19,378 bases of DNA from a virus (IMGVR_UViG_3300029337_000248:1-19378), one strand, 5' to 3'; shown: positions 2,727-19,378, counted from the first letter of the stretch. The notes: a model not told the origin generated them from the letters alone. Program-made: numbers and translations.

Positions 2727-2772
2727 GTGGAGCCCATCAACCCCGCCATTTCGGTTCAAGGTTGATGGGTTT
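2727..2772 (+). terminator. Intrinsic terminator downstream of ybjL; probably the last host-type feature before the prophage end
   Basis: Perfect 10-bp stem CCCATCAACC / GGTTGATGGG with a structured loop, followed by TTTTTTGTT on the + strand; no U-run in the minus-strand reading. Confidence 0.6.
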
Positions 2773-2855
2773 TTTGTTGCCTGAAATTTATACCTTTTAA
2801 AATCATGATGTTAGAAGCACTGCTTTTTAACGATGGCGACAAAATGGCGGCAGCG

Positions 2856-3074
2856 TCAAAGAGAGAGCGCCACCTGTCCTGATTTCATTGGATGCGGCTG
2901 AACCGGATTTGACTCTTTTGGCGTTGCAATCGAACGAACAAAAGTTTCATGGGTAACAAAAGTATGGCTGCAGTTAATGTTCTGGCACTGGTTGTAACGC
3001 TCTTTGGTCAATGAAGATACCTGAAAACTGCTGCGAGTATGGGCGGCACTTCCACACAGTGGGCAAATCATCAT
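2856..3074 (-). CDS. ogr: Ogr/B-family zinc-finger late-gene transcription activator
   Basis: ~72 aa product from the internal Met (MMICPLCGSAAH...ERYNQCQNINCSHTF) carrying the CPLC...CQN.NC zinc-finger pattern of P2 Ogr / 186 B; immediately downstream of D as in P2. GGGGAG lies ~10 nt upstream of the chosen ATG. Confidence 0.85.
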   Translation of the reverse strand: MMICPLCGSAAHTRSSFQVSSLTKERYNQCQNINCSHTFVTHETFVRSIATPKESNPVQPHPMKSGQVALSL

Positions 3075-3164
3075 TTTTCGAGTTCTCCCCATTTTTGCTA
3101 AATTCACAATAATGATACCGTATTATTCCATTTTGCAAACTTAAAAGTTCTCCATTGCGAAGAA

Positions 3165-4265
3165 TCATTCCATTTCGAAATCATCAATCCTCACTTCAAG
3201 CTCCAGACTGGTCGTAAAACCGTTATCCGGGCTGACGGTATGTGTCAGAGTCGTAATGGTCCATTCCGCATCATCTATCGGCTGTTTAAAACCACTGACT
3301 TTCACTGGCATTTCCGTGTAGAGATCTGCCCGACCTTCCGCCAGTTGTAGCGAGAATGACGCAACGCCGCGTTGCAGGCGTTCCCACTGCATTTTCGCCG
3401 CTCGTTCGGCGTTGCTCCGGTTGGCATAAGTGCGATTAAGTACCAGCACGTTTTCATCCGTACCCACCAGGTAATCGCCCTGCTTCGCTTCCGGCTCTTT
3501 CGTCTGCTTCTTAGTCCTGCGCTTACGCTTCACCGTGGTGCTTTCTTTCTTCGAGGGTTCGCGAGTATGCAACCAGCTGGCAATTACGCCCGTGTAAGCT
3601 CCGCGATCTGCCAGGGTAAAGCGGTGACTGTCGCCGTCCTTACGTGTGATAGTGATCACCGGTAGTGGTTTACCGCTGGCGCTTTTACCCTGTCCCTGTC
3701 GGATGAATAACAGATTGCCATTTTTCACCGACGCAATAGCACCGTACTGGCGCGCCAGCCGCATCAGAAAACTGCCGTCACTCTCATTGGTCTGGTCTAA
3801 ATGTTCCACGGTTTTATCTGACAGGTCTTTACCCAATGCCATCTTCAGTTTGTGCCGCGCAGCTATTTCCTTCACCACTTCCCCAACGGTGGTCTTGTGC
3901 CACGACTTTTCACGGCGGGTATTCAGCGTTTCACGAAAATCAGCACTTCGCGCCCGGATAGTCAGGCGGTCCGGTGCGCCAGTGTGTTCAATCTCGTCCA
4001 CCGTGAATGTCCCTTTCGGGAAAAGCGGCTGCCCCTTCCAGCCCAGCGCCAGCGTAATGACCGCACCACGGCGCGGCAGCACGATTTTTCCGTCGGCGTC
4101 GTCCAGCTCCAGATCAAGCTGGTCCGCTTCAAAGCCCCGATTGTCCGTCAGCGTCAAACTCATCAGGCGGTTATCCAGCACAGTGGTGATATCCCTGCCC
4201 TCAATACTGATGCTGAATGCGGGAGTTTTGTTGCCTTTGTTAAGCAGTTCAGAGCTGAAATTCAC
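3165..4265 (-). CDS. D: Phage late control / tail protein D (P2 gpD family)
   Basis: 366 aa ORF, the last gene of the T-U-D order, read on the minus strand; size and sequence character fit P2 gpD (recalled ~387 aa). Confidence 0.85.
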   Translation of the reverse strand: MNFSSELLNKGNKTPAFSISIEGRDITTVLDNRLMSLTLTDNRGFEADQLDLELDDADGKIVLPRRGAVITLALGWKGQPLFPKGTFTVDEIEHTGAPDRLTIRARSADFRETLNTRREKSWHKTTVGEVVKEIAARHKLKMALGKDLSDKTVEHLDQTNESDGSFLMRLARQYGAIASVKNGNLLFIRQGQGKSASGKPLPVITITRKDGDSHRFTLADRGAYTGVIASWLHTREPSKKESTTVKRKRRTKKQTKEPEAKQGDYLVGTDENVLVLNRTYANRSNAERAAKMQWERLQRGVASFSLQLAEGRADLYTEMPVKVSGFKQPIDDAEWTITTLTHTVSPDNGFTTSLELEVRIDDFEME

Positions 4266-4747
4266 GACAGCAGCCCTCCCACCGTTTTACTGATATCGCT
4301 TAAAGCAGACGTTGCCATGTCCTGCAGATTATTCAGTTGCGCACTGAGATCACCGAACATATCGGACAGGGATTCATCCACCCGTTTGAGCGACAGGGTG
4401 AACTCAATCCGGCGCGGCATACCGTCGCGGAAAAACTCCGTTTTAGTCTGATTCAGTCCCTCAATCACATACATGCCATAAATCGTGCCGCTGCCTTCAA
4501 TCAGGGGCCATGCTTTCCCCTGTTCTGCCATCTGCTCCAGCGCCAGCAGCGACAGCCTGCCACCTGTTATCTCCGGCATAAGAACACCGGAAAGCGTCAG
4601 CATGTCGTTGTCCGGTCCCAGAAACTGCGTGGACGGACGTCGGTTTACCCGGCTGTTTGCCGCATGTCGCCAGTTGCGTTGATACTGCAGCTCCTGATAC
4701 GGCACGGTGCGCAGCATAAACACGTACAATCCCAGCACCATCATCAT
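4262..4747 (-). CDS. U: Phage tail protein U (P2 gpU family)
   Basis: 161 aa ORF whose stop overlaps the D start by 4 nt (ATGA), between the T fragment and D; size matches P2 gpU (~160 aa). Confidence 0.85.
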   Translation of the reverse strand: MMMVLGLYVFMLRTVPYQELQYQRNWRHAANSRVNRRPSTQFLGPDNDMLTLSGVLMPEITGGRLSLLALEQMAEQGKAWPLIEGSGTIYGMYVIEGLNQTKTEFFRDGMPRRIEFTLSLKRVDESLSDMFGDLSAQLNNLQDMATSALSDISKTVGGLLS

Positions 4748-5448
4748 GCGTCGTATCCCCCCTGATCGCTGTAGTTACTCCTGGCTTTTGCCTTCAACCT
4801 GCGTTCACGTTCATCAAGCTGGCGGGCCACCTCCCGCGCAATATCCTGCGCACTTTGTCCTGGCTGCGTCTGGATGATGATCTGCGTCGGTGCCTCAATC
4901 CTGTAAACGGGCGGCACAGTGGCTGCGCGACTCACAATTGCTTCTCCACCTTTCGCGGGAAGTGCCAAAGGGTGCAACGGTGGAAGCTCTGCTGGTGCGG
5001 CAGCAACGCCCATCATTCCGGCAACAACGGCAGCCAGTGCAGCTGTATTTCTCCGGCTAGTCACATTTGCCGGGCCGTTAACAATTTCCGGCCCGTTTTC
5101 ACCGACGATGCCAAACTGCCCGCGCGGGATATACCCGCCGCTGTCATACATCCCCGCAAAGCCATATCCCCATGATGGAAAACCACCCGATGGCATCATC
5201 ACTTTACCGTCTGCATTCACCGTCGCAGGTTGCTGACGCGTCACGCTTTCCGGCAGTTTTGCCTTTGCGGCCTCTTTACTGACAATGCCGAGCTTCTCCA
5301 GCAACCAGGAAACGCCGGATTTCAGGGAGTCCAGCGGATGCATGACCATATTCAGCCCTTCCGCCAGTGCCTCCCCGAATCTCCGCCCCATTGCCGCTGC
5401 ACTCTGCAGTTCGGCAGAGGTCGACTTAACGGGCGTCAACCGTAACAA
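4744..5448 (-). pseudogene. T: Tail tape-measure protein T, C-terminal fragment only (5' part deleted)
   Basis: 234 aa ORF directly upstream of U in the T-U-D order; P2 gpT is ~815 aa from memory, and the reading frame runs straight into the terminase fragment on the opposite strand with no E/E' or other tail genes upstream. Confidence 0.7.
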
Positions 5449-6865
5449 AGGCCCGCGCCGTCAGCCGGAAAAGAACGTTTTCACCGATGAACAGATTGAG
5501 AAGCTGGAAGAAATCTTCCATTCCTCCATGTTCAACTACCAGCGCCACTGGTGGGAAGCCGGAAAAACCAACCGCATCCGCAACCTGCTGAAGTCACGCC
5601 AGATCGGCGCGACCTTCTATTTTGCCCGTGAAGCCCTGATTGACGCCCTGCTAACCGGGCGTAACCAGATTTTCCTTTCCGCCAGCAAGGCTCAGGCCCA
5701 CGTCTTTAAGCAGTACATCATCGACTTCGCCAAAGAAGTGGAGGTGGAGCTGAAAGGCGATCCGATGGTGCTTCCTAACGGGGCCACGCTTTACTTCCTC
5801 GGCACCAATGCCCGCACTGCCCAGAGTTATCACGGCAACCTGTATCTGGATGAATATTTCTGGATACCGAAATTCCAGGAGCTGCGCAAAGTGGCTTCCG
5901 GTATGGCTATTCACAAGAAATGGCGACAAACCTATTTTTCCACGCCATCCAGCCTGACTCATAGTGCTTATCCGTTCTGGTCCGGTGCGCTGTTCAACCG
6001 TGGGCGCAACAAAGCCGATAAGGTGGACATCGACCTGTCCCACAGCAATCTGGCCCCCGGCCAGCTGTGCGCCGACGGGCAATACCGCCAGATAGTCACC
6101 GTGGAAGATGCGGTGCGCGGCGGCTGTAACCTGTTCGACCTTGACCAGTTGCGCATGGAGTACAGCCCGGACGAATACCAGAACCTGCTGATGTGCGAGT
6201 TTGTGGACGATCTCGCGTCCGTGTTTCCGCTCAGCGAGCTGCAGGCGTGCATGGTGGACAGTTGGGAAGTCTGGACCGACTTTCATGCTCTGGCCCTGCG
6301 CCCATTTGGCTGGCGCGAAGTGTGGATCGGTTATGACCCGGCAAAAGGTACGCAGAACGGCGACAGCGCCGGATGCGTGGTGGTGGCACCGCCAGCCGTG
6401 CCAGGCGGTAAGTTTCGCATTCTCGAGCGTCACCAGTGGCGCGGGATGGACTTCCGTGCCCAGGCGGACGCAATCAAAAAACTGACCGAGCAGTACAACG
6501 TGACCTACATCGGCATCGACTCAACCGGCGTTGGTCACGGGGTTTACGAGAACGTGAAAGCGTTCTTTCCTGCCGTCCGGGAGTTTGTCTACAACCCCAA
6601 CGTTAAAAACGCCCTGGTACTCAAGGCCTACGACATTATCAGCCACCGCCGTCTGGAGTTTGACGCCGGACACACCGACATAGCGCAGTCCTTTATGGCA
6701 ATCCGTCGCTCCACCACCGCCAGTGGCAACCGCCCGACCTATGAAGCCAGCCGCAGCGAAGAAGCCAGCCACGCCGATCTGGCATGGGCAACGATGCACG
6801 CACTGTTTAACGAACCGCTGCAGGGCGAATCCGCCAATACCAGCAATATTGTGGAGATTTTTTGA
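5449..6865 (+). pseudogene. P: Terminase large (ATPase/nuclease) subunit P, N-terminally truncated
   Basis: ORF 5285-6865 translates to a terminase-like protein (C-terminal nuclease-type segment ...YIGIDSTGVGHG...) and is followed by portal Q with a 4-nt overlap. Its first ~55 codons overlap the T fragment on the other strand, so the homologous part starts near 5450-5475, well short of the ~590 aa I recall for P2 gpP. Boundary is approximate. Confidence 0.7.
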
Positions 6866-7890
6866 TGGGAAAGAGTAAGAAAAACCGCGCAGCGGCGATG
6901 AATCAGATCCAGCATAAAAGCCAGACTTCAGCCGAAGCATTCAGCTTCGGCGATCCCGTTCCTGTTCTGGACCGTCGCGAACTGCTGGACTATGTGGAAT
7001 GCGTACAGATGGACCGCTGGTATGAGCCGCCTGTGAGTTTCGACGGCCTGGCGCGAACATTCCGCGCCGCCGTACACCACAGCTCACCGATTGCAGTAAA
7101 GTGCAACATTCTGACCAGCACCTATATCCCTCACCCACTGCTCAGCCAGCAGGCTTTTTCACGTTTTGTGCAGGACTATCTGGTATTTGGTAACGCCTAC
7201 CTGGAGAAACGCACGAACCGCTTCGGTGAAGTTATCGCCCTTGAACCTGCGCTGGCAAAATACACCCGACGCGGGTTAGACCTGGATACCTACTGGTTTG
7301 TGCAATACGGCATGACTACGCAGCCGTATCAGTTCACGAAAGGCAGCATCTTTCATCTGATGGAACCGGATATCAACCAGGAGATCTACGGCCTGCCCGG
7401 TTATCTTTCTGCCATTCCGTCAGCCCTGCTCAACGAGTCCGCCACGTTGTTCCGCCGTAAGTATTACATCAACGGCAGCCATGCAGGCTTCATCATGTAC
7501 ATGACCGATGCCGCGCAGAATCAGGAGGATGTGAACAACCTCCGCAACGCGATGAAAAGCGCCAAAGGTCCAGGCAACTTCCGCAACCTGTTTATGTACT
7601 CACCTAACGGCAAAAAAGACGGGCTTCAGATCATCCCATTGTCAGAAGTCGCGGCGAAGGATGAATTTCTTAACATCAAGAACGTGAGTCGGGATGACAT
7701 GATGGCAGCGCACCGCGTGCCGCCGCAAATGATGGGGATTATGCCGAATAATGTTGGGGGGTTTGGGGATGTGGAGAAAGCAAGTAAAGTGTTTGTACGA
7801 AACGAACTTATACCATTACAAAAACGCTTAGGAGAGATAAATGAATGGCTTGATAAAAAAATAATAGAATTTGAAATATATTCATTCTGA
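6862..7890 (+). CDS. Q: Portal (capsid vertex) protein Q
   Basis: 342 aa ORF immediately downstream of P with overlapping stop/start, matching the P-then-Q order and ~344 aa size of P2 gpQ. Confidence 0.85.
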   Translation: MMGKSKKNRAAAMNQIQHKSQTSAEAFSFGDPVPVLDRRELLDYVECVQMDRWYEPPVSFDGLARTFRAAVHHSSPIAVKCNILTSTYIPHPLLSQQAFSRFVQDYLVFGNAYLEKRTNRFGEVIALEPALAKYTRRGLDLDTYWFVQYGMTTQPYQFTKGSIFHLMEPDINQEIYGLPGYLSAIPSALLNESATLFRRKYYINGSHAGFIMYMTDAAQNQEDVNNLRNAMKSAKGPGNFRNLFMYSPNGKKDGLQIIPLSEVAAKDEFLNIKNVSRDDMMAAHRVPPQMMGIMPNNVGGFGDVEKASKVFVRNELIPLQKRLGEINEWLDKKIIEFEIYSF

Positions 7891-7974: not shown

Positions 7975-8472
7975 TCACTTTAAGAATTTTTTCTGATAAG
8001 ACTCATCAATTAGAGATTTAATTATTTTCGCCCTTTTTGACACTAATACACTAATTCTTGTCCTTTGACTTTTATCATACTCCTGTGCTTTTTCAATATT
8101 AGATGTAGCATCTTTGAATAAATCAGCAATCAAAGGTTTATAGTCACCTTCGATATTAATGCGTTGTTTTAGATGATTCAACCACCGCTCGGTCTCCGCA
8201 AGAAGTGCTGTTATCTCATTTTGAAATGACATTGCATCAATTTCTTTTGAATCTCCCGGTATCCAAAACTTTCTTGATGCAGATTCAATTTCCTTTAAAT
8301 TATCTGAAACATTTTTTACAATTGCCCATGTTTCACTCCTCTTTTGCAACGCACGGGAGTTTCTATAAACAAAAACCCAACCAATCAAGGCTGTTAGAAT
8401 TGCAATCACACCTGAACTAGCAAGGTATTGTAATAACCGCAGATAAACCGGAAGTTCATCCATGAACATCAC
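7975..8472 (-). CDS. Single-pass membrane protein of unknown function (candidate effector), third gene of the cargo operon
   Basis: 165 aa ORF; one predicted transmembrane helix near the N-terminus (LLQYLASSGVIAILTALIGWVFVY), then a charged, likely helical domain; start overlaps the stop of the upstream gene by 4 nt; AT-rich codon usage. Confidence 0.75.
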   Translation of the reverse strand: MMFMDELPVYLRLLQYLASSGVIAILTALIGWVFVYRNSRALQKRSETWAIVKNVSDNLKEIESASRKFWIPGDSKEIDAMSFQNEITALLAETERWLNHLKQRINIEGDYKPLIADLFKDATSNIEKAQEYDKSQRTRISVLVSKRAKIIKSLIDESYQKKFLK

Positions 8473-8789
8473 TCCTTTTTAGCATCAGAAATATATCCCC
8501 ATATACTATCCTTGAGGAAATCCAAATCAGTAAATATTTTTAATTTTTTCCTAATTATAGCTTTATCTATATTATTTGTTCTATAAAGTCCACCAAACGC
8601 CTCTTCCAAGAATGAAGAACCATAACCCATAGCACCATCAAGGTACACGTGCACCTCATCATAATCTTGGATGGCTTTCAAAAGATACTTTTCACGGAAA
8701 CGTTGTCCATTATCAGGACCATCCTCATCATAGCGGCCATAGGGAACATCTGAAAAATCTTCAGCAACATGTATCTCTTTGATTTTCAT
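8469..8789 (-). CDS. Small acidic protein, candidate STAS-like (anti-sigma-antagonist-like / DUF4325-like) partner, second gene of the cargo operon
   Basis: 106 aa ORF translationally coupled (4-nt overlaps) to both neighbours. Size and a ...LDGAMGYGSSFLEEAF... segment with adjacent serines resemble the phosphorylatable region of STAS/SpoIIAA-like proteins. The family call is by eye and tentative. Confidence 0.7.
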   Translation of the reverse strand: MKIKEIHVAEDFSDVPYGRYDEDGPDNGQRFREKYLLKAIQDYDEVHVYLDGAMGYGSSFLEEAFGGLYRTNNIDKAIIRKKLKIFTDLDFLKDSIWGYISDAKKE

Positions 8790-9853
8790 TCAGCACCTCT
8801 CAAACTTACATTCCATTGAATAAGGGTTCCACCTATGGAGTATGGCAGATCAAATTTATCTTCAACATTATTTTCAGCATCATAAGAATATCGTCCCATT
8901 CCACTAAAAATATGTAACTGCCCCTCAGGGTTATCTACAACATACCTTTTCATATCAGGTAATCCTTTACCATGCTTCTGACTATTCATTCTTGTCTCAC
9001 CATACTGTACAGCCGCGAATATTTTATCAGAATCCGTCTTAGGATTAAATATCTGAGCGATAAATGTGAAAAAGTCTTTTTTAACCAATGTAACTGGGAT
9101 ACCTTCTCCCATATCATACACCATCAAAAATAGTTGTTCTTCGACTTTGTGTGCCAATATCCACCATCTTTTACCAATGTCCTCAATAAATTCAGAGAAC
9201 TGTTCTTCATTTGAATACGCATGTAGACCAACATTGCTAATAGATTCAGTTAAGGCTGCATATAATTTCACACCATCCGAAGCGGAAATCTTACCTTCAT
9301 AAATGGTATCTTTTATATAACGTAGAATATTTTTAATTTTTTGTCTTGCTTCGGCACTTTCATGATCATCTCTAGTTTTGCCTGCAACAGCGGAAACAAT
9401 TTCCATTGAATTAAGCTTATCTGCAGCTATACGCTGAAACCCTGTAATCCCCCAAATACCACATATTTTAAACCAGTTATTTGCCCTGGATGAACCGCAC
9501 GTAGTAATAGAAATTATATTTTTATCTTTTGTTTGCCTTTGTAAAAAGTCAATATGTGCATACAATACGATTACTGCACATGCTTTCAGAGATTTTGTAT
9601 TTCTGAAATCTATTAAAATTTTCTCACCATCATTGATGTAATCTCTGATTAAAGTGATAAACTCTATAAATAGTTTGTAATTTTTAGTATTAAATAAGTC
9701 CAATGACGCAGGCGCGGGTATTCTCACACGAGAGAATACCCGCATGGGCTGTAGCATCCGTCTTCCACCAGAAAGCTTTCTTGACTCCCGCTTCGCAATC
9801 TTCCTTGCTCTGATCAAAGAATGTTCAATTTGTTCTTCAGTTAGCCGCTTCAT
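8786..9853 (-). CDS. GHKL-type (histidine-kinase-like / anti-sigma-kinase-like) ATPase with an unassigned ~190 aa N-terminal domain, first gene of the cargo operon
   Basis: C-terminal half carries Bergerat-fold motifs in order: N-box TESISNVGLHAY (E-x3-N-x3-H-[GA]-Y as in SpoIIAB/RsbW), G1 box YDMGEGIP (DxGxG), G2 box HGKGLPD, G3 GGTLIQW. Start placed at the internal Met (MKRLTEEQ...) because GAGGAAAGG precedes it; the longer ORF reaches 9898. Confidence 0.75.
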   Translation of the reverse strand: MKRLTEEQIEHSLIRARKIAKRESRKLSGGRRMLQPMRVFSRVRIPAPASLDLFNTKNYKLFIEFITLIRDYINDGEKILIDFRNTKSLKACAVIVLYAHIDFLQRQTKDKNIISITTCGSSRANNWFKICGIWGITGFQRIAADKLNSMEIVSAVAGKTRDDHESAEARQKIKNILRYIKDTIYEGKISASDGVKLYAALTESISNVGLHAYSNEEQFSEFIEDIGKRWWILAHKVEEQLFLMVYDMGEGIPVTLVKKDFFTFIAQIFNPKTDSDKIFAAVQYGETRMNSQKHGKGLPDMKRYVVDNPEGQLHIFSGMGRYSYDAENNVEDKFDLPYSIGGTLIQWNVSLRGAE

Positions 9854-10000
9854 ATCCTTTCCTCGATAGTTGTTGAAGCTTATCAGTTCACGCAACAACT
9901 ACAAACATCTACCTGCTATCTTAAAGCAACAATTTGAAAGAACATTGAAAATCATAGTATCTGTTTGTAAACAAACGACTGTTTCTATACCTTGCGCGCG

Positions 10001-10019
10001 CTCGTATCCCCGCCACGCC
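10001..10019 (-). other. cos-like cohesive-end site
   Basis: Minus-strand reading GGCGTGGCGGGGATACGAG; the first 12 nt match the cohesive-end sequence I recall for 186 (GGCGTGGCGGGGAAAGCAT) and P2 (GGCGAGGCGGGGAAAGCAC). Located in the A-to-Q interval where cos is expected. Confidence 0.6.
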
Positions 10020-10050
10020 TGCCCGCTTTATGTAGTAGTTTTCATGCACC

Positions 10051-10151
10051 TGCATGACATGAGCAAAAGCCCGCCAGTTCTGGCATGTCTTAGCCAAACC
10101 GATCCTCAAACGATCATGCGAACCCATGCAGCATAGACATGCATGACATGA
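10051..10151. repeat. Direct repeats of TGCATGACATGA (10051-10062 and 10140-10151) flanking cos, within a CATG-rich cluster
   Basis: Two exact 12-bp copies 89 bp apart, read directly from the sequence; TGGCATGTC also occurs twice (10081-10089 and 10252-10260). Confidence 0.7.
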
Positions 10152-10201
10152 AAATCGGTCAAACCTTGAAACCAGTCATAAATATGAGCCAGCTTAATAC
10201 A

Positions 10202-10387
10202 CACTAAATAGCTGCGTCTAATACTGCTACACCTGCCGTTTACTGACATGTGGCATGTCGCGTAAGGACAACATACTGTAGGCCAGATACAGCAGGATCA
10301 GGCGAAGAAAACGGCCCCACGCCTTACCCAGCAAGGGCCAAGGGCTAACCGAAAGTGGAGCATTATTCCGCGCAGTTATTTAGTGTC
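10202..10387. repeat. ~186 bp segment bounded by 16-bp inverted repeats (ACACTAAATAGCTGCG ... CGCAGTTATTTAGTGT, 15/16 match)
   Basis: Inverted repeat read directly from the sequence; the interior is non-coding, relatively GC-rich and holds a small hairpin (GACATG-tgg-CATGTC). Nature unknown: structured RNA or MITE-like relic. Confidence 0.5.
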
Positions 10388-10492
10388 AGCTCTTTTGAGC
10401 TAAAATCAAGTTTCAACATGAGGGTCTGTGCAGGCTTTCTCATCCCGCTAATTTATACAGCACACCTATATGGCTATGAGTTTGTCATGCCC

Positions 10493-10524
10493 GCTAATCC
10501 TGTTAGGATTAGCCTTGTTTTTTT
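10493..10524 (+). terminator. Terminator-like hairpin immediately upstream of the lipoprotein gene
   Basis: Perfect 9-bp stem GCTAATCCT / AGGATTAGC with loop GTT, followed by CTTGTTTTTTT; ends 17 nt before the ATG at 10542. Confidence 0.5.
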
Positions 10525-10541
10525 ACGATTGGGATAGGGAT

Positions 10542-11348
10542 ATGAAGAAATTAACTGGCGTAATTGCTTTTGCTCTGCTGCTTACTGCTTGTGACAAACC
10601 GAAGATCGATGCATCAAGCGATCAGTCGATGAAAGAGTCCATTCAAAAAGTAAGAGAGTCCTTACCTGCAGATAAAAAAGCTCAGTTTGATGATGCAGTT
10701 AAAGTCGTTGCCTTTAGCCAAATCAACATGAGAGAGCTAATGCAGGCTGGAACGTCTTCTGGGGACGTCTACGAAACAAAAATTAAGTCAGCGTTGGAAG
10801 GTAAAACTGGTGATGAGGTTATAAATTACGCACAAACTATTCGCCTTGAGCGTGAGAAGAGAGAGAAAGAACAGGCTCTGCAAGAAATAAAAGAACTGGA
10901 AGCCAAACAAACCTCTGCAACACAGGCTGCGGAAAAAATGAAAGCCTTCAAGGTCGAACGTTCCCGTTTTTATTTCCAGAAAGAGGATTACGGCAATGAT
11001 CAGCCAATTCTGGATATTAGCGTTGAAAACGGAACAGACAAAGCGGTTGCCAGAGTATTCTTCAAAGGAGTTATTGCCAGCCCAGGAAGAAGCGTCCCTT
11101 GGTTCTCTGACGTCTTCAACTATAAAATTTCTGGAGGTCTGGAACCAGGTGAGAAAGCCAACTGGAAATTAGCCCCTAATAGATACTCTGATTGGGGAAA
11201 ACTTAAAGTTCCGGCTGATGCTATATTTACCGTCACAGTCATTGGCCTTGAAGACGCAGATGGGAAATCGATCTATGGTGACGCCGAGTTTTCAGAACGC
11301 GATGCTGACAGACTGAATCAACTTAGAGATAAGTACCTTTCTAAATAA
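10542..11348 (+). CDS. Lipoprotein of unknown function (~268 aa), candidate superinfection-exclusion or lysogenic-conversion protein
   Basis: Start chosen at MKKLTGVIAFALLLTAC with a lipobox (LLTAC); the track ORF starts upstream at 10470 but that part covers the terminator hairpin. Central lysine/glutamate-rich predicted coiled coil, then a C-terminal globular region. Confidence 0.75.
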   Translation: MKKLTGVIAFALLLTACDKPKIDASSDQSMKESIQKVRESLPADKKAQFDDAVKVVAFSQINMRELMQAGTSSGDVYETKIKSALEGKTGDEVINYAQTIRLEREKREKEQALQEIKELEAKQTSATQAAEKMKAFKVERSRFYFQKEDYGNDQPILDISVENGTDKAVARVFFKGVIASPGRSVPWFSDVFNYKISGGLEPGEKANWKLAPNRYSDWGKLKVPADAIFTVTVIGLEDADGKSIYGDAEFSERDADRLNQLRDKYLSK

Positions 11349-12165: not shown

Positions 12166-14580
12166 TTAATACAGGTTCCGCCACTTATCATCTTCCTGCA
12201 AACGCTGGTTCCGATAGAAGATACGCAGGCCTGCTCCTGACGGAATACTGCCACCGCAAAGGAGCAAATCGACCTCTTTCTCGCTGCCATCAAATCCTCT
12301 GGACTTCAGTTCATAGACGAGCTGCTGACGCTGATACTCTGTAATTCGCTGTTTGTAGTCTTTACGCCGTTTCGGTTTAACCAGGCGCAATCTTGCTGCC
12401 AGTTCCCGGCGCTCTTTTTTGCTCATACTGTGCAGGTAATCGTGCAATTCCTTGTCATCCATGCAGGTAATGTCCGTTCTGGTATCCCCATCTGCTGATT
12501 CATCTTTCTCATGTTGGTTCAAATTTTCAGCAAGGGGACAGTTATTGCCACGAGTCCAAGGGGCGCAAGCGCCCTGGTCGGCTGCCGCCTCCTGAACGTC
12601 AACGGCTTTACGAACCATTTTCCACTTCACTGCATGAGTGCAGATCTTGCCCTCTGCAATGGGTGACCAGATGCCATAAATACGAATGCCGTGATCGCCA
12701 TAGGCGGTCGGCTCTTCGTTGATTTCATAAGCGGTTCTGATGAGGTGATATTTACGGGGAACCAGTACGCCGCCCTGTTTCATGATGTAGGTGGCAAAAC
12801 AACCAGCATCAGCAGCAGCCAGAATGGCATCAAGACGCGGGTTATCCAGTACCGGCGCACCTGCTTTTTTGTCACCCTGTTGCCTTGCCGCCTGACCAGC
12901 CAGCAAGCGAAGTTCACGGTAAGCCTGACGCCCCGGAATACCAAAGAAGCGGAATTGCTGAACACGATGCAGAGACGCCCAGGCATTCACGTATTCAGCG
13001 TTATCACGCAGAGATTTACCCGTTTCCTTGCTGATCTCGCCAACCAGACCACGACCGTCAATGTTCTTACTGATATATTTCGCGATGTAGCTTGTCGGCG
13101 TTCCTTTGCGCGGGTTAATCAACTCAGACTTAAAGCGCGGCCCAGTGTTATTGCCCAGCTCCTCGCGGTCTTCACGGATGGCAAACTTACGCAGTAATGC
13201 AGTGATGGCACGGCGGTCTTTTTTGCGCATGAAACACAACAGGTGCCAGTGAACTGTGCCATCATGATGCGGCTCAGCCACCCGCACGCCATACCAGCGC
13301 AACCCGGCTTTGTGCATCGCCTTACGAAATGCAGCAAACATGCCGACCAGATAATCGCTGCTTTGTCTTACCGTCGCGTTTGTCCAGGTCGGGTTTGGTC
13401 TGCCGTTATTTAGCGTGGAATGGAAACGCGACGGACAGGTGATAGTGTAGAAAACGGCGCAGTCACCGCGCATTTCCGCGATAAGCTCCAGACCTTTAAC
13501 ACAGGCCATCATCTCATTGCGGCGATGCGCAGGGTTGCTGCTGCTGGCGTTTACCACATCCTCCATGTCCAGCGTGTCGCCGTCTTCGTTCACCAGTTCA
13601 TGAGAACGGAAAAACTCCAGCGACTTACGGCGCTGCTCACGTTTATGCATCACGGCTTCATAGCTGACATAAGGAGATGCTTTTTTGCTGACCAGGCAAA
13701 CAGCGCGCAACTGCTCTTCCCGCCATTCGCAACGCATCTTCCATAATTTCCGATACCACCAGTCGGCGCACAACATACGCGCCAGCGAACCCGGAATGAG
13801 TTCATAGGGCACGGGTTTGCGGCGGTTTCTTTTCCGACGGAGTTGCTCAAACGCAGGTGGGATGACATCCAGACGCAGGGTTTCCGCTGCCACCTTTTCC
13901 CATGTCTTGCGGATTTCTTCTGGCTTAACGTCATCGGTGGCATACAAATCACCACAAGCTGCATCAAGGCACATACTCATATGCGCAGCTACCAGGGTGG
14001 ACAGGCGTTTCACCTGATCCTGACTCATTTCAGGCAGGATCAGCAGGCCGTCCAGCCCTTCATGGCTTGCCATAAAGCGAAAAGATGCAGATAGCTGACT
14101 GTCGCGTACATGCTCCAGTCGTTCCAGACATGGCTTAATCGTCTCACGTAAATAGCGGGAATAAGCCTTTGGCCTGCCCAGGCTGCTGAAGTATTCAATA
14201 CGTTGCATCAGCGGCTTGCTGATATGGGAAGGCTGGGCGTTGACGTCCGCCAGAATGACCATGTCTGAATTAAAACGCTGCTGCTCATGCGCCAGCTTTG
14301 CCCGGCTAATGAGCTTATCCTGCTCCATTTCGCGCTGGACAGGATCACGTGATTCATTAAAGAAATAACGCTCCCAGACCTGATCACTCAGTGCCTCGCG
14401 GCGCAACTGTTCCTGCTCGTTATCGGCAGCGTACAGAGTGATCAGGTTTGAAAGCGTAGAAACCGGCGCAACTTCCGCCGGGTCCAGATAAGGGTTAATG
14501 GCCTTTTTCGGGCTGTTCCATGAGAATGCTGCGGCAGCCTCGTTAAAGCCGCAGCAGTTGTTCATATCGGCATGACTCAT
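12166..14580 (-). CDS. A: Replication initiation protein A (rolling-circle replication endonuclease, P2 gpA / 186 A family)
   Basis: 804 aa ORF containing the rolling-circle active-site tyrosine motif ([16 protein letters not shown]); position at the end of the early operon matches P2/186. Confidence 0.9.
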
Positions 14581-17945: not shown

Positions 17946-18137
17946 ATGCTTGGTAAGGTATTTTTTGTGGTTTTGTCATGTTCTTTGTTATTAAACCCAC
18001 TAGCTACCTATGCTAGAAATTATCCCTGCTCAGGGAAAAAGGGAGGTGTTTCTCACTGTACCTCTGATGGCAAATTCGTTTGCAATGATGGAACTATTAG
18101 TAAATCCAAAAAAATCTGTACTAAAAACTCACGATAA
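17946..18137 (+). CDS. Small secreted cysteine-rich protein (63 aa precursor) between cI and int
   Basis: Strong RBS (GGGAGG, 7 nt spacing); N-terminal signal peptide ([23 protein letters not shown]) and a ~40 aa mature part with 4 Cys. Confidence 0.7.
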
Positions 18138-18325
18138 CTTTTGCTTTTATATCTGCGCCTAAAATAAAAATGAGCCACAGGTTAACCGCAAAAGTTACAT
18201 GATCACATAGCAAAAAGAATAGCCTACTTCATTATGGCTTCAGTGAGATGTATGGTCGCAGGATTTCATACATTGACACTGGTTATACATACAGTAAAAA
18301 TGCTCTCTATTGGAGGGCATTTTTT

Positions 18326-19378
18326 ATGGCTGTACGAAAACTCACCACAGGAAAATGGCTTTGCGAATGTTACCCCGCCGGACGTAGTGGGCGTCGTGTG
18401 CGTAAACAATTCGCCACCAAAGGCGAAGCACTGGCTTTTGAGCGTCACACGATGGAAGAAACCGAAGCAAAGCCCTGGCTAGGTGAATCAGTGGATCGTC
18501 GAACACTGAAAGACGTGGTTGAGCTATGGTTCAAACTACATGGTAAATCACTGACTGCTGGGCAGCATGTCTATGACAAATTGCTGCTGATGGTTGACGC
18601 TCTGGGCAATCCCCTTGCAACTGATCTCACCTCTAAAATGTTTGCCCACTATCGAGATAAACGCCTGACAGGTGAGATCTACTTCAGCGAGAAATGGAAG
18701 AAAGGAGCAAGCCCGGTCACCATTAACCTGGAGCAAAGCTATCTAAGTAGTGTTTTTAGCGAACTATCCCGCCTGGGCGAATGGTCGTATCCGAACCCAC
18801 TGGAGAACATGCGAAAATTCACCATCGCAGAAAAAGAGATGGCATGGCTTACCCATGAGCAGATTGTTGAATTACTGGCTGATTGCAAACGTCAGGACCC
18901 AATTCTGGCACTGGTAGTTAAGATATGCTTAAGCACAGGCGCACGCTGGCGAGAAGCCGTAAATCTTACTCGTTCACAGGTGACCAAATACCGAATTACC
19001 TTTGTAAGAACGAAGGGGAAGAAAAACAGAAGCATCCCTATCAGTAAAGAGCTTTACGAAGAGATCATGGCGCTTGATGGGTTCAATTTCTTCACAGACT
19101 GCTATTTTCAATTTTTATCCGTGATGGAAAAAACGTCTATCGTGCTCCCTCGCGGTCAACTCACACACGTTCTGCGCCATACGTTTGCGGCGCACTTCAT
19201 GATGTCGGGTGGAAACATTCTGGCCTTACAAAAAATTCTCGGACACCACGATATAAAAATGACTATGCGTTACGCACATCTGGCACCGGATCATCTGGAA
19301 ACGGCGCTCCGTTTCAATCCTCTGGCAACGCTGCCAAGTGGCGACAAAGTGGCGGCAGCGGTTGGCATTACCCCGTAA
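18326..19378 (+). CDS. int: Tyrosine integrase (P2/186 Int family)
   Basis: 350 aa from the Met at 18326 (MAVRKLTTGKW...), preceded by GGAGG; catalytic signature residues in order (...GARWREA..., ...HVLRHTFAAH..., ...MRYAHL...); located at the prophage end next to cI. Confidence 0.9.
   Translation: MAVRKLTTGKWLCECYPAGRSGRRVRKQFATKGEALAFERHTMEETEAKPWLGESVDRRTLKDVVELWFKLHGKSLTAGQHVYDKLLLMVDALGNPLATDLTSKMFAHYRDKRLTGEIYFSEKWKKGASPVTINLEQSYLSSVFSELSRLGEWSYPNPLENMRKFTIAEKEMAWLTHEQIVELLADCKRQDPILALVVKICLSTGARWREAVNLTRSQVTKYRITFVRTKGKKNRSIPISKELYEEIMALDGFNFFTDCYFQFLSVMEKTSIVLPRGQLTHVLRHTFAAHFMMSGGNILALQKILGHHDIKMTMRYAHLAPDHLETALRFNPLATLPSGDKVAAAVGITP

What the first reader, a model, noticed from the sequence alone, without database searches (positions are those of the whole stretch)
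9950..10265. cos-like site embedded in a cluster of CATG-centred repeats
A sequence matching the first 12 nt of the 186/P2 cohesive end (as I recall them) lies at 10001-10019 in the minus-strand reading. It is flanked by two exact copies of TGCATGACATGA 89 bp apart, two copies of TGGCATGTC, and an inverted repeat TGTTTGT-aa-ACAAAC at about 9952-9966. These could be terminase small-subunit binding sites or operators for the adjacent cargo operon. The small terminase subunit M is deleted and P is truncated, so any packaging would need a helper.
Basis: partly seen in the sequence, partly recalled or inferred. Interest (0 to 1): 0.4.

Follow-up and report, generated by a model that had tools for sequence, protein, structure and literature searches.

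The report
Orphaned P2-family phage cos site
This is the genuine DNA-packaging (cos) site of a Fels-2/186-like P2-family prophage in E. coli, left stranded in a prophage that has lost its capsid, tail and small-terminase genes; it is a well-known kind of element and ordinary.

Summary
On the minus strand, 10019->10001 reads GGCGTGGCGGGGATACGAG. This is identical to the putative cos of Salmonella phages SEN8 and Fels-2. It shares its first 13 nt with the annotated cohesive ends of 186 and PSP3.

It sits in a 152-bp block (9994-10145), the only conserved DNA between two variable cargo regions. The block lies where P2-like phages carry cos, between portal gene Q and replication gene A.

Five YGCATG(A) motifs occupy fixed offsets from the cut site (CATG at -122, -109, -99, -37, -27). 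They are kept in 90-99% of 114 relatives. The TGCAT cores at the four direct sites are also kept in 95-100% of P4-like satellite blocks. They are therefore part of the packaging signal, not cargo operators. Binding by terminase is inferred, not shown.

The exact 12-mer pair, the second TGGCATGTC and the 9963-9976 palindrome are lineage-specific or belong to the cargo flanks.

The prophage (about 16.7 kb, E. coli ybjK/ybjL site) lacks genes O through T, including small terminase M. Its gpP lacks its first ~113 residues. Packaging would need a helper.

Verdict: a known kind of site, low interest. Side observations: recurrent independent deletions at this locus, and cargo modules that appear to exchange at cosN.

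The parts
9994..10145 (-). Whole conserved cos block. Read on the minus strand in the P2 map convention: a 126-nt right arm, the 19-nt cohesive-end sequence, then 7 nt.
   Evidence: Column conservation in 114 unique IMG/VR relatives drops to background outside offsets -126..+26. Phage-database matches cover only 9992-10143.
10001..10019 (-). 19-nt cohesive-end sequence GGCGTGGCGGGGATACGAG. By homology the nicks fall between 10020|10019 on the minus strand and 10000|10001 on the plus strand, giving 5' overhangs.
   Evidence: Identical to the SEN8 'putative cos' and to Fels-2 and 813R9. In register with the annotated cos ends of 186, PSP3, P2 and P4. Cleavage itself is not shown.
10020..10026 (-). 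Outer half-site GCGGGCA, immediately 5' of the minus-strand nick.
   Evidence: More than 90% conserved. P2 has GCGGGCG^ and 186 has GTGGGCA^ at the same place.
9994..10000 (+). Outer half-site GCGCGCG, immediately 5' of the plus-strand nick. It is the pseudo-dyad partner of 10020-10026 and forms the left edge of the conserved block.
   Evidence: Conserved through +26, after which conservation ends abruptly. P2, 186 and P4 carry (T/C)GCGCGC here.
10042..10057 (.). Proximal palindrome TCATGCA-CC-TGCATGA. It holds motif R5 (10042-10048, TGCATGA on the minus strand) and R4 (10051-10057, inverted).
   Evidence: CATG at offsets -27 and -37 in 99% and 93% of relatives. The spacer is GG or CC, a flip of the palindrome. 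TGCAT at -29 in 100% of P4-like and 94% of P2-type blocks.
10069..10088 (-). GC-rich hairpin position. The consensus is GCCCGCCAG-NN-CTGGCGGGC followed by TTTTGC. In this window only the 5-bp core GCCAG-AA-CTGGC (10073-10084) survives.
Evidence: Scored as terminator-like on the minus strand. 186, PSP3 and P4 have a hairpin at the same place; P2 does not.
10100..10116 (-). Conserved TGATCG-N7-GATCG element holding two GATC (Dam) sites.
   Evidence: Highly conserved within the Fels-2 type and absent from P2, 186 and P4. Role unknown.
10114..10143 (-). Distal array of three direct motifs: R3 CGCATGA (10114-10120), R2 TGCATGG (10124-10130) and R1 TGCATGT (10137-10143). Centre-to-centre spacing is 10 and 13 nt.
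   Evidence: CATG at -99, -109 and -122 in 94%, 96% and 90% of relatives. TGCAT at -101, -111 and -124 in 95% of P4-like satellite blocks. Invariant columns across P2, 186, PSP3, P4, Fels-2 and SEN8. Window 10124 (G) is a private change from the consensus A.
10146..10151 (-). Lineage-specific extension TCATGT that completes the distal copy of the 12-mer. It lies outside the conserved block.
   Evidence: The 12-mer occurs twice only in the window, L035 and L105. CATG at -131 and -126 does not reach the 5% reporting threshold among relatives.
9963..9976 (.). Palindrome GTTTGT-AA-ACAAAC in the leader/promoter region of the left cargo operon. Not part of cos.
   Evidence: It lies in unconserved DNA. 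Only one arm is kept in the one diverged homologue, L027.
10246..10260 (.). Small palindrome GACATG-TGG-CATGTC holding the second TGGCATGTC copy. Part of the right cargo flank, not of cos.
   Evidence: Outside the conserved block. It lies inside a long inverted repeat, 10201-10386.
5285..6865 (+). Truncated large-terminase ORF P'. It holds gpP residues ~114-588 fused to about 51 unrelated residues. The deletion junction is at 5434-5438.
   Evidence: The N-terminal Terminase_5 HTH-like domain (residues 11-68) is missing.
6862..7890 (+). Portal gene Q, transcribed toward cos as in P2 and 186.
   Evidence: Pfam Phage_portal; synteny with KP12 and 813R9.

Best explanation
Window 9994-10145 is the cos packaging site of a Felsduovirus-like (Fels-2/186-type) P2-family prophage. 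The prophage is integrated between ybjK and ybjL of E. coli.

Anatomy, read on the minus strand:
- a distal array of three direct YGCATG(A) motifs
- a GATC-containing element
- a GC-rich hairpin position
- a proximal palindrome TCATGCA-NN-TGCATGA
- a 33-bp cosN, made of the 19-nt cohesive-end sequence bracketed by pseudo-symmetric GCGSGCR half-sites

Proposed mechanism. The motif array acts as a cosB-like recognition region on one side of the cut site. Terminase binds it, through gpM and/or the N-terminal HTH-like domain of gpP. That places the nuclease so that it makes two nicks 19 nt apart, at 10020|10019 on the minus strand and 10000|10001 on the plus strand. The product carries GGCGTGGCGGGGATACGAG 5' overhangs.

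Shown here: the homology, the position, the conservation pattern and the motif offsets. Inferred: protein binding, the nick positions, and whether the site is still active.

In this genome the site is orphaned. A roughly 17-kb deletion removed genes O through T, including small terminase M, and the first ~113 residues of gpP. The site can therefore act only in trans with a helper phage of matching specificity. The variable DNA on both sides is the known cos-proximal cargo hotspot.
For: - The 19-mer is identical to SEN8, Fels-2 and 813R9 and is in register with the annotated cos ends of 186, PSP3, P2 and P4.
- The 126-nt right arm aligns without internal gaps to all of these, with invariant columns concentrated in the TGCAT motifs and in AAAAC...AAAGYGGGC.
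- Matches to 81-93 P2-like phage records are confined to 9992-10143, with E down to 2e-53.
- The block lies between Q and A, as in the relatives.
- In 114 relatives the conserved block is exactly -126..+26.
- Five CATG sites sit at fixed offsets in 90-99% of relatives. TGCAT sits at the four direct-motif offsets in 95-100% of P4-like satellite blocks. [quoted passage not shown]
- CATG is enriched in the block, P about 9e-7.
- An intact-looking prophage, L136 (full P, O, N, M, L, lysis, R, S), carries the same block with one nucleotide difference.
- The deletion and the P truncation are documented.
- The literature reports a 55-bp cos core in P2-family phages and foreign-gene hotspots beside cos.
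Against: - No experiment has defined the cohesive ends of any Fels-2-type phage. The SEN8 cos was assigned by annotation.
- No terminase binding site has been mapped for P2-family phages in any paper I could read. Ziermann & Calendar 1990 is not held.
- The window's block departs from the consensus at 8 conserved columns. Three of them shorten the hairpin, and one (10124) is private to this genome.
- The hairpin shows almost no compensatory covariation, so its role is unresolved. It could be a terminator, a protein site or a spacer.
- Conservation of the 19-mer in my sets is by construction, because I selected loci on it.
Confidence: 0.85

Rival explanations
1. The CATG-centred repeats are operators or promoter elements that regulate the adjacent cargo operons. 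The cos resemblance would then be incidental to that function.
For: The block lies between two divergently oriented cargo units whose promoters must be nearby: the left operon starts at 9853 on the minus strand and the DUF6694 gene at 10470 on the plus strand. In P2 the old-tin transcript starts about 150 nt from cos. The window-specific extra CATG copies (offsets -131, -126, -68, -42) travel with the right-hand cargo module in L035, L105 and L136.
Against: The five core motifs keep identical offsets in relatives carrying entirely different cargo on both sides. Four of them also do so in P4-like satellites. The promoter scan found no candidate inside the block. The features that really are cargo-linked (the 9963-9976 palindrome and the second TGGCATGTC) lie outside the block, and the palindrome is not kept in the one diverged homologue.
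Confidence: 0.05
2. The site is a decaying relic. It is homologous to cos but no longer a usable packaging substrate, like the rest of this degraded prophage.
For: The prophage is defective. The block has 8 departures at conserved columns, including a hairpin shortened from 9 to 5 bp and a private A-to-G change beside motif R2. Nothing in this genome segment would select for cos function.
Against: Seven of the 8 departures are shared with an intact-looking prophage, L136. They are also shared with 20 E. coli complete genomes at 99.3-99.7% identity. They therefore predate the deletion and are compatible with a complete phage. The retained 5-bp GCCAG-NN-CTGGC core equals the PSP3 version and is contained in the 186 stem. 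cosN and all five core motifs are intact.
Confidence: 0.12
3. The block is kept mainly as a recombination linker. It would be a patch of shared sequence, or the cohesive ends themselves, through which cargo modules are swapped between co-resident P2-like elements. This is complementary to packaging, not exclusive of it.
For: In pairs of relatives sharing only the right flank, the whole right arm is 98.5-99% identical. In pairs sharing only the left flank it is 87-90% identical, against a background of 78-86%. Exchange points therefore fall at or just left of cosN. Ten loci with the identical left cargo carry four different right arms and right cargos. Rousset et al. speculated on exactly this.
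Against: The linkage pattern shows where exchange happens, not why the block is conserved. The fixed-offset motifs shared with satellites argue for selection by the packaging machinery. My sets were selected on an identical 19-mer.
Confidence: 0.3

Closest known systems
cos of Felsduovirus phages (Fels-2, SEN8, RE-2010, SopEPhi) and related E. coli/Klebsiella P2-like prophages
   Same: The 19-mer is identical. The 152-bp block is 87-91% identical. The position between Q and A is the same, and so are the variable cargo regions on both sides.
   Different: This lineage (with L035, L105, L136) has four extra CATGs, a shortened hairpin and a duplicated TCATGTCATGCA. Here the site sits in a deletion derivative that has no packaging genes.
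cos of coliphages 186 and PSP3, and of P2 and its satellite P4 (annotated 19-nt 5' cohesive ends; 55-bp core of Ziermann & Calendar 1990)
   Same: The first 13 nt equal 186 and PSP3. The TGCAT motifs, the AAAAC...AAAGYGGGC run and the (T/C)GCGCGC flank are in the same register. 186, PSP3 and P4 have a hairpin at the same place.
   Different: The last six positions of the overhang differ (ATACGAG here against AAAGCAT or AAAGCAC). R5 reads TGCATGA here and TGCATTA in those phages. The GATC pair is specific to the Fels-2 type.
Phage lambda cos (cosN plus one-sided cosB with repeated small-terminase R sites)
   Same: It works alike in outline: a pseudo-symmetric nick site, with an array of short repeats on one side only, at roughly helical spacing. 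This comparison rests on my own knowledge of lambda.
   Different: There is no sequence or protein homology to lambda. The overhang is 19 nt rather than 12. No IHF site was identified. The binding protein is unknown. P2 terminase packages from circular monomers (my own knowledge, not tested here).
P4 satellite and P4/P2 cosmids (helper-dependent packaging of DNA that carries only cos)
   Same: This is a cos-bearing element without capsid, tail or terminase genes. It keeps an integrase, replication genes and an Ogr/Delta-type activator.
   Different: It has no sid, psu or alpha homologues. It arose by deletion of a P2-like prophage and is not a P4-type lineage. Mobilisation has not been shown.

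Membership tests
P2-family (Peduoviridae) cos site | GC-rich 19-nt cohesive-end sequence beginning GGCG(A/T)GGCGGGG | tested here: met
   Minus strand 10019->10001. 13 of 13 with 186 and PSP3; 19 of 19 with SEN8 and Fels-2. Unique in the window.
P2-family (Peduoviridae) cos site | Conserved core flanking the cut sites (TGCAT[T/G]AAAAC...AAAGYGGGC on the right, [T/C]GCGCGC on the left) | tested here: met
   Alignment without internal gaps to P2, 186, PSP3, P4, Fels-2 and SEN8. Block conservation -126..+26.
P2-family (Peduoviridae) cos site | Located between portal gene Q (with P, transcribed toward cos) and the replication gene A region | tested here: met
   P' 5285-6865(+), Q 6862-7890(+), cos 9994-10145, A 12166-14580(-). 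Same order as KP12, 813R9, Fels-2 and 4LV2017.
P2-family (Peduoviridae) cos site | Staggered cleavage by terminase that yields 19-nt 5' overhangs | not testable with these tools
   Nick positions are inferred by register with the annotated P2, 186 and PSP3 ends. The SEN8 cos was assigned by annotation only.
P2-family (Peduoviridae) cos site | Sufficient in cis for helper-dependent packaging or transduction | not testable with these tools
   Indirect only: an intact-looking prophage (L136) carries the same block with one nucleotide difference.
Lambda-like cosB (small-terminase R-site array) | Several copies of a short motif on one side of cosN that the small terminase binds | tested here: inconclusive
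   Five YGCATG(A) motifs at fixed offsets on one side only. Binding is untested, and the binding subunit (gpM or the gpP N-terminal HTH-like domain) is unknown.
P4-like phage satellite | Own primase-helicase (alpha) and capsid-size and helper-manipulation genes (sid, psu, epsilon) | tested here: not met
   tblastn of P4 alpha, sid, psu, delta and int against the window gave only the delta/ogr similarity.
P4-like phage satellite | cos matching a helper, with no structural genes | tested here: met
   The cos block is intact. Genes O through T are absent and P is truncated.

The most novel reading that the evidence does not exclude
The 16,688-bp remnant may not be mere debris. It could be a helper-dependent, cos-mobilisable defence island, a proto-satellite derived from a P2-like phage.

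- It keeps cos, int, the cI/cII switch, replication genes, ogr and both cos-flanking cargo modules.
- Its length is almost exactly half a full P2-like genome, so a dimer would fill a helper capsid.
- At least four independent deletions at the same ybjK/ybjL prophage remove the same morphogenesis and lysis block while sparing cos.
Probability: 0.1. Interest if true: 0.55.

Novelty: already known. Interest (0 to 1): 0.22.

Why it matters
As a cos site it adds nothing new in kind. The same block occurs in about a quarter of complete E. coli genomes, and the 19-mer is already annotated for phage SEN8.

Its practical value is in annotation. It fixes the true cos and the boundaries of the two cargo hotspots in this prophage. 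It also shows that the prophage cannot package itself.

Three by-products are testable:
1. A concrete map of five fixed-offset TGCATG motifs and a pseudo-dyad cosN as candidate terminase recognition elements. In the papers I could read, no binding sites have been defined for P2-family terminase.
2. Population evidence that cargo exchange in P2-like phages breaks at cosN, as Rousset et al. speculated.
3. Recurrent deletions that leave cos-bearing, defence-carrying remnants.

Tried and rejected
- Rfam on 9600-10700 at E<=1 gave no family.
- PADLOC on the flanking cargo proteins gave no hit.
- Exact-sequence look-up of the P' fusion ORF, meant to count genomes with this junction, found nothing on record. 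The genome was identified through the cargo protein instead.
- I searched 120 IMG/VR loci carrying the Fels-2-type 19-mer for P4-like satellites (alpha, sid, psu). There were none. Satellites were found only with the P2-type 19-mer.
- Ziermann & Calendar 1990 is not held. Its '55-bp core' is cited only through later papers.
- Hairpin covariation: almost no compensatory changes, so it is not informative.
- The left-flank palindrome (9963-9976) and the 9867-9901 inverted repeat as operators: not conserved in L027. They also do not fit the TGT-N12-ACA dyad of Ogr-dependent late promoters as I recall it.
- The two ORFs overlapping cos (9870-10136+, 9921-10127-) were rejected as genes, because their ends lie in unconserved flanks.
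- Record ends of Cartapus, Midge and PHB48 do not coincide with the inferred nicks, so they give no evidence on termini.

Full report
**What the window is.** The left end (1-2760) is 100% identical to E. coli grxA-ybjM-ybjL. From about 2765 onward the DNA is a P2-family prophage 94-98% identical to Klebsiella and Escherichia phages KP12, 813R9 and 4LV2017.

The gene order is:
- ogr 2856-3107(-)
- D 3165-4265(-)
- U 4262-4747(-)
- a C-terminal piece of the tape-measure gene T, 4744-5448(-)
- a truncated terminase gene P', 5285-6865(+)
- portal Q 6862-7890(+)
- a three-gene cargo operon on the minus strand, 7975-9853
- the region under study
- a DUF6694 gene, 10470-11348(+)
- replication gene A 12166-14580(-)
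- dam, and the cII/cI switch
- int 18248-19378(+)

The whole window is 100% identical to GCA_022494455.1 (CP058796.1). A 14-nt direct repeat, AACAAAAAACCCAT, lies at 2765-2778 and again 75-88 nt beyond the window end. This puts the element at 16,688 bp.

**Checking the observation.**
- The reverse complement of 10001-10019 is GGCGTGGCGGGGATACGAG. Its first 13 nt equal the annotated cohesive end of 186 and PSP3.
- The 12-mer TGCATGACATGA lies at 10051-10062 and 10140-10151.
- TGGCATGTC lies at 10081-10089 and 10251-10259.
- CATG is strongly clustered. There are 8 in 9994-10145 against 0.71 expected (P about 9e-7). None of 20,000 shuffles reached 8, and no other 152-nt stretch of the window has more than 3.

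**It is the cos site.** Three lines of evidence agree.

First, the 19-mer is identical to the 'putative cos' at the start of the Salmonella phage SEN8 record. It is also identical to the corresponding sequence of Fels-2 and 813R9. The next 7 nt (CGCGCGC) and the preceding AAAGCGGGCA match P2, 186, PSP3 and P4 in register with their annotated cohesive ends.

Second, the 126 nt on the A side align to the right arms of P2, 186, PSP3, P4, Fels-2 and SEN8 without a single internal gap.

Third, the position is the canonical one, between Q (transcribed toward cos) and the A region. No other GGCGWGGCGGGG exists in the window.

One caveat applies. The SEN8 cos was assigned by annotation, not by end mapping. 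The cut positions here are therefore inferred from 186, PSP3, P2 and P4.

**Extent and anatomy.** I collected 120 IMG/VR loci that carry the exact 19-mer. They gave 114 unique variants. Conservation is high from offset -126 to +26 relative to the first base of the 19-mer, which is window 10145-9994. It falls to background immediately outside. Database phages likewise match only 9992-10143.

Five CATG-centred motifs sit at fixed offsets within the block: -122, -109, -99, -37 and -27. They are present in 90%, 96%, 94%, 93% and 99% of variants.
- Read on the minus strand, R1-R3 are direct repeats: TGCATGT, TGCATGG and CGCATGA, at window 10137-10143, 10124-10130 and 10114-10120.
- R4 and R5 form a perfect palindrome, TCATGCA-NN-TGCATGA, at 10042-10057.

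Between the two groups lie a conserved GATC pair (10100-10116) and a GC-rich hairpin position (10069-10088).

The 7 nt outside each inferred nick are pseudo-symmetric. They read GCGGGCA^ on one strand and GCGCGCG^ on the other. P2 has GCGGGCG^ and GCGCGCA^. The outer half-site is exactly where conservation stops on the Q side.

**Why the motifs belong to packaging and not to the cargo.** The flanks of the 114 variants are unrelated to one another, yet the motif offsets are constant.

An independent set gives the same picture. I scanned for the P2-type 19-mer and separated 20 unique blocks from P4-like satellites, recognised by alpha, sid or psu homologues. These carry TGCAT at -124, -111, -101 and -29 in 95-100% of cases. 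Those positions correspond to R1, R2, R3 and R5. The inverted R4 copy is not kept in P4 (CAGTGCA).

According to Rousset et al., cos is the only region homologous between satellites and helpers. What the two share is what the helper's packaging machinery reads.

The binding protein is not identified. Full-length gpP of a close relative has an N-terminal Terminase_5 domain (residues 11-68) with sub-threshold HTH similarity. gpM is the Pfam small-terminase family. Either could read the motifs.

**What is lineage-specific.** The window has four extra CATGs, at -131, -126, -68 and -42. Each is found in at most 7% of variants.
The duplicated TCATGTCATGCA occurs twice only in the window, L035 and L105.
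- They also create the first TGGCATGTC, through three substitutions that shorten the hairpin from 9 to 5 bp.
- The retained GCCAG-NN-CTGGC core equals the PSP3 version and is contained in the 186 stem.
- The second TGGCATGTC and the 9963-9976 palindrome lie in the variable flanks. In the only diverged homologue of the left cargo (L027, 77% identity) just one arm of the palindrome is kept.

**Is this copy still usable?** The window departs from the consensus at 8 conserved columns. L136 shows no break from P through S within the DNA fetched: it has full P, O, N, M, L, lysis genes, R and S, with the same cargo on both sides. It carries the identical block apart from one base, window 10124 G against A. 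Twenty complete E. coli genomes carry the variant at 99.3-99.7% identity. The variant is therefore compatible with a complete phage. I put about 0.6 on the window's copy being a competent substrate.

**The prophage is defective.** Homology to KP12 runs from the tail genes straight into P, with a 5-nt overlap at 5434-5438. Genes O, N, M and L, the lysis genes and most tail genes are missing. P' keeps residues ~114-588 of gpP fused to about 51 unrelated residues, so it lacks the Terminase_5 domain.

**Context in the literature.** The cos-proximal interval between A and Q is a described hotspot of anti-phage cargo in P2-like phages (Rousset et al.). The cos-to-Q segment has long been noted as an insertion site for foreign genes such as retrons and ctx. 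The flanking cargo is therefore expected.

**Side results.**
1. At least four different deletion junctions exist in this prophage family at the same chromosomal site. They are the window (identical to L141), L096, L144, and a group of 28 complete E. coli genomes such as NZ_CP032992.
2. Pairs of relatives sharing only the right flank have 98.5-99% identical right arms. Pairs sharing only the left flank have 87-90%. Ten loci with the identical left cargo carry four different right arms. Module exchange therefore breaks at or next to cosN.
3. cos-block matches occur in 1264 of 5426 complete E. coli genomes. The gpM gene of this type occurs in 983. This is a rough hint that many cos copies are orphaned.

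**Verdict.** This is a real and correctly recognised cos site of a known type, sitting in a decayed prophage. It is ordinary in kind and interest is low. The motif map and the side results are useful leads rather than discoveries.

Noticed in passing
window 7975-9853 (minus strand): Three-gene cargo operon between Q and cos: a 355-aa protein with weak HATPase_c similarity, a 106-aa DUF4325 (STAS-like) protein and a 162-165-aa protein with no family. The layout resembles a kinase/STAS partner-switching pair. There is no PADLOC hit and no mention in Rousset et al. The exact 355-aa protein is indexed in 1,829 blocks of the collection, and it lies in this Q-cos slot in all ten places shown.
   Followed up: partly
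window 10146-10520: The 325-nt non-coding stretch between cos and the DUF6694 gene holds a long imperfect inverted repeat: 10201-10240 against 10347-10386, 78% complementary. It folds better than shuffles (z -3.8 on plus, -3.0 on minus) and has no Rfam match. A terminator-like hairpin lies at 10493-10513, just inside the ORF start listed at 10470.
   Followed up: partly
window 5427-5438; L096 3749-4329; L144 14755-14805; L145 9220-9438: At least four independent deletion junctions remove the head, lysis and tail block from P2-like prophages at the same ybjK/ybjL site. All spare U/D/ogr, Q and cos. They are T'-P' (window), T'-P' with other endpoints (L096), U'-full P (L144), and T'-full P in 28 complete E. 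coli genomes.
   Followed up: partly
cos blocks of L015-L134 and L135-L144: The cos right arm is linked to the right-hand flank (98.5-99% identity when that flank is shared). It is nearly unlinked to the left flank (87-90%). Cargo modules therefore appear to be exchanged at or next to cosN.
   Followed up: partly
window 10049-10050 and 10078-10079; relatives: Both palindromic elements of the block occur in two flip forms among relatives. The spacer of TCATGCA-NN-TGCATGA is GG or CC. The hairpin loop is AA or TT. In each case the two forms are reverse complements of each other.
   Followed up: partly
E. coli complete genomes: Megablast finds the cos block in 1264 genomes (1308 places) but the gpM gene of this phage type in only 983 (1016 places). 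This suggests several hundred cos copies without a closely related small-terminase gene. The two queries differ in sensitivity, so the gap is only indicative.
   Followed up: partly
window 2765-2778 and 75-88 nt beyond the window end (L141 388-401): A 14-nt direct repeat, AACAAAAAACCCAT, marks candidate att cores. The element is 16,688 bp, almost exactly half the 33-35 kb of full-length relatives.
   Followed up: no
window 17946-18137; L139, L140 503-2179; L144 827-2503: The slot between cI and int is another variable locus. The window has a 63-aa YdcA-like ORF there. Relatives carry a 558-aa SNIPE/T5orf172 protein, annotated 'chromosome segregation ATPase' in KP12.
   Followed up: no
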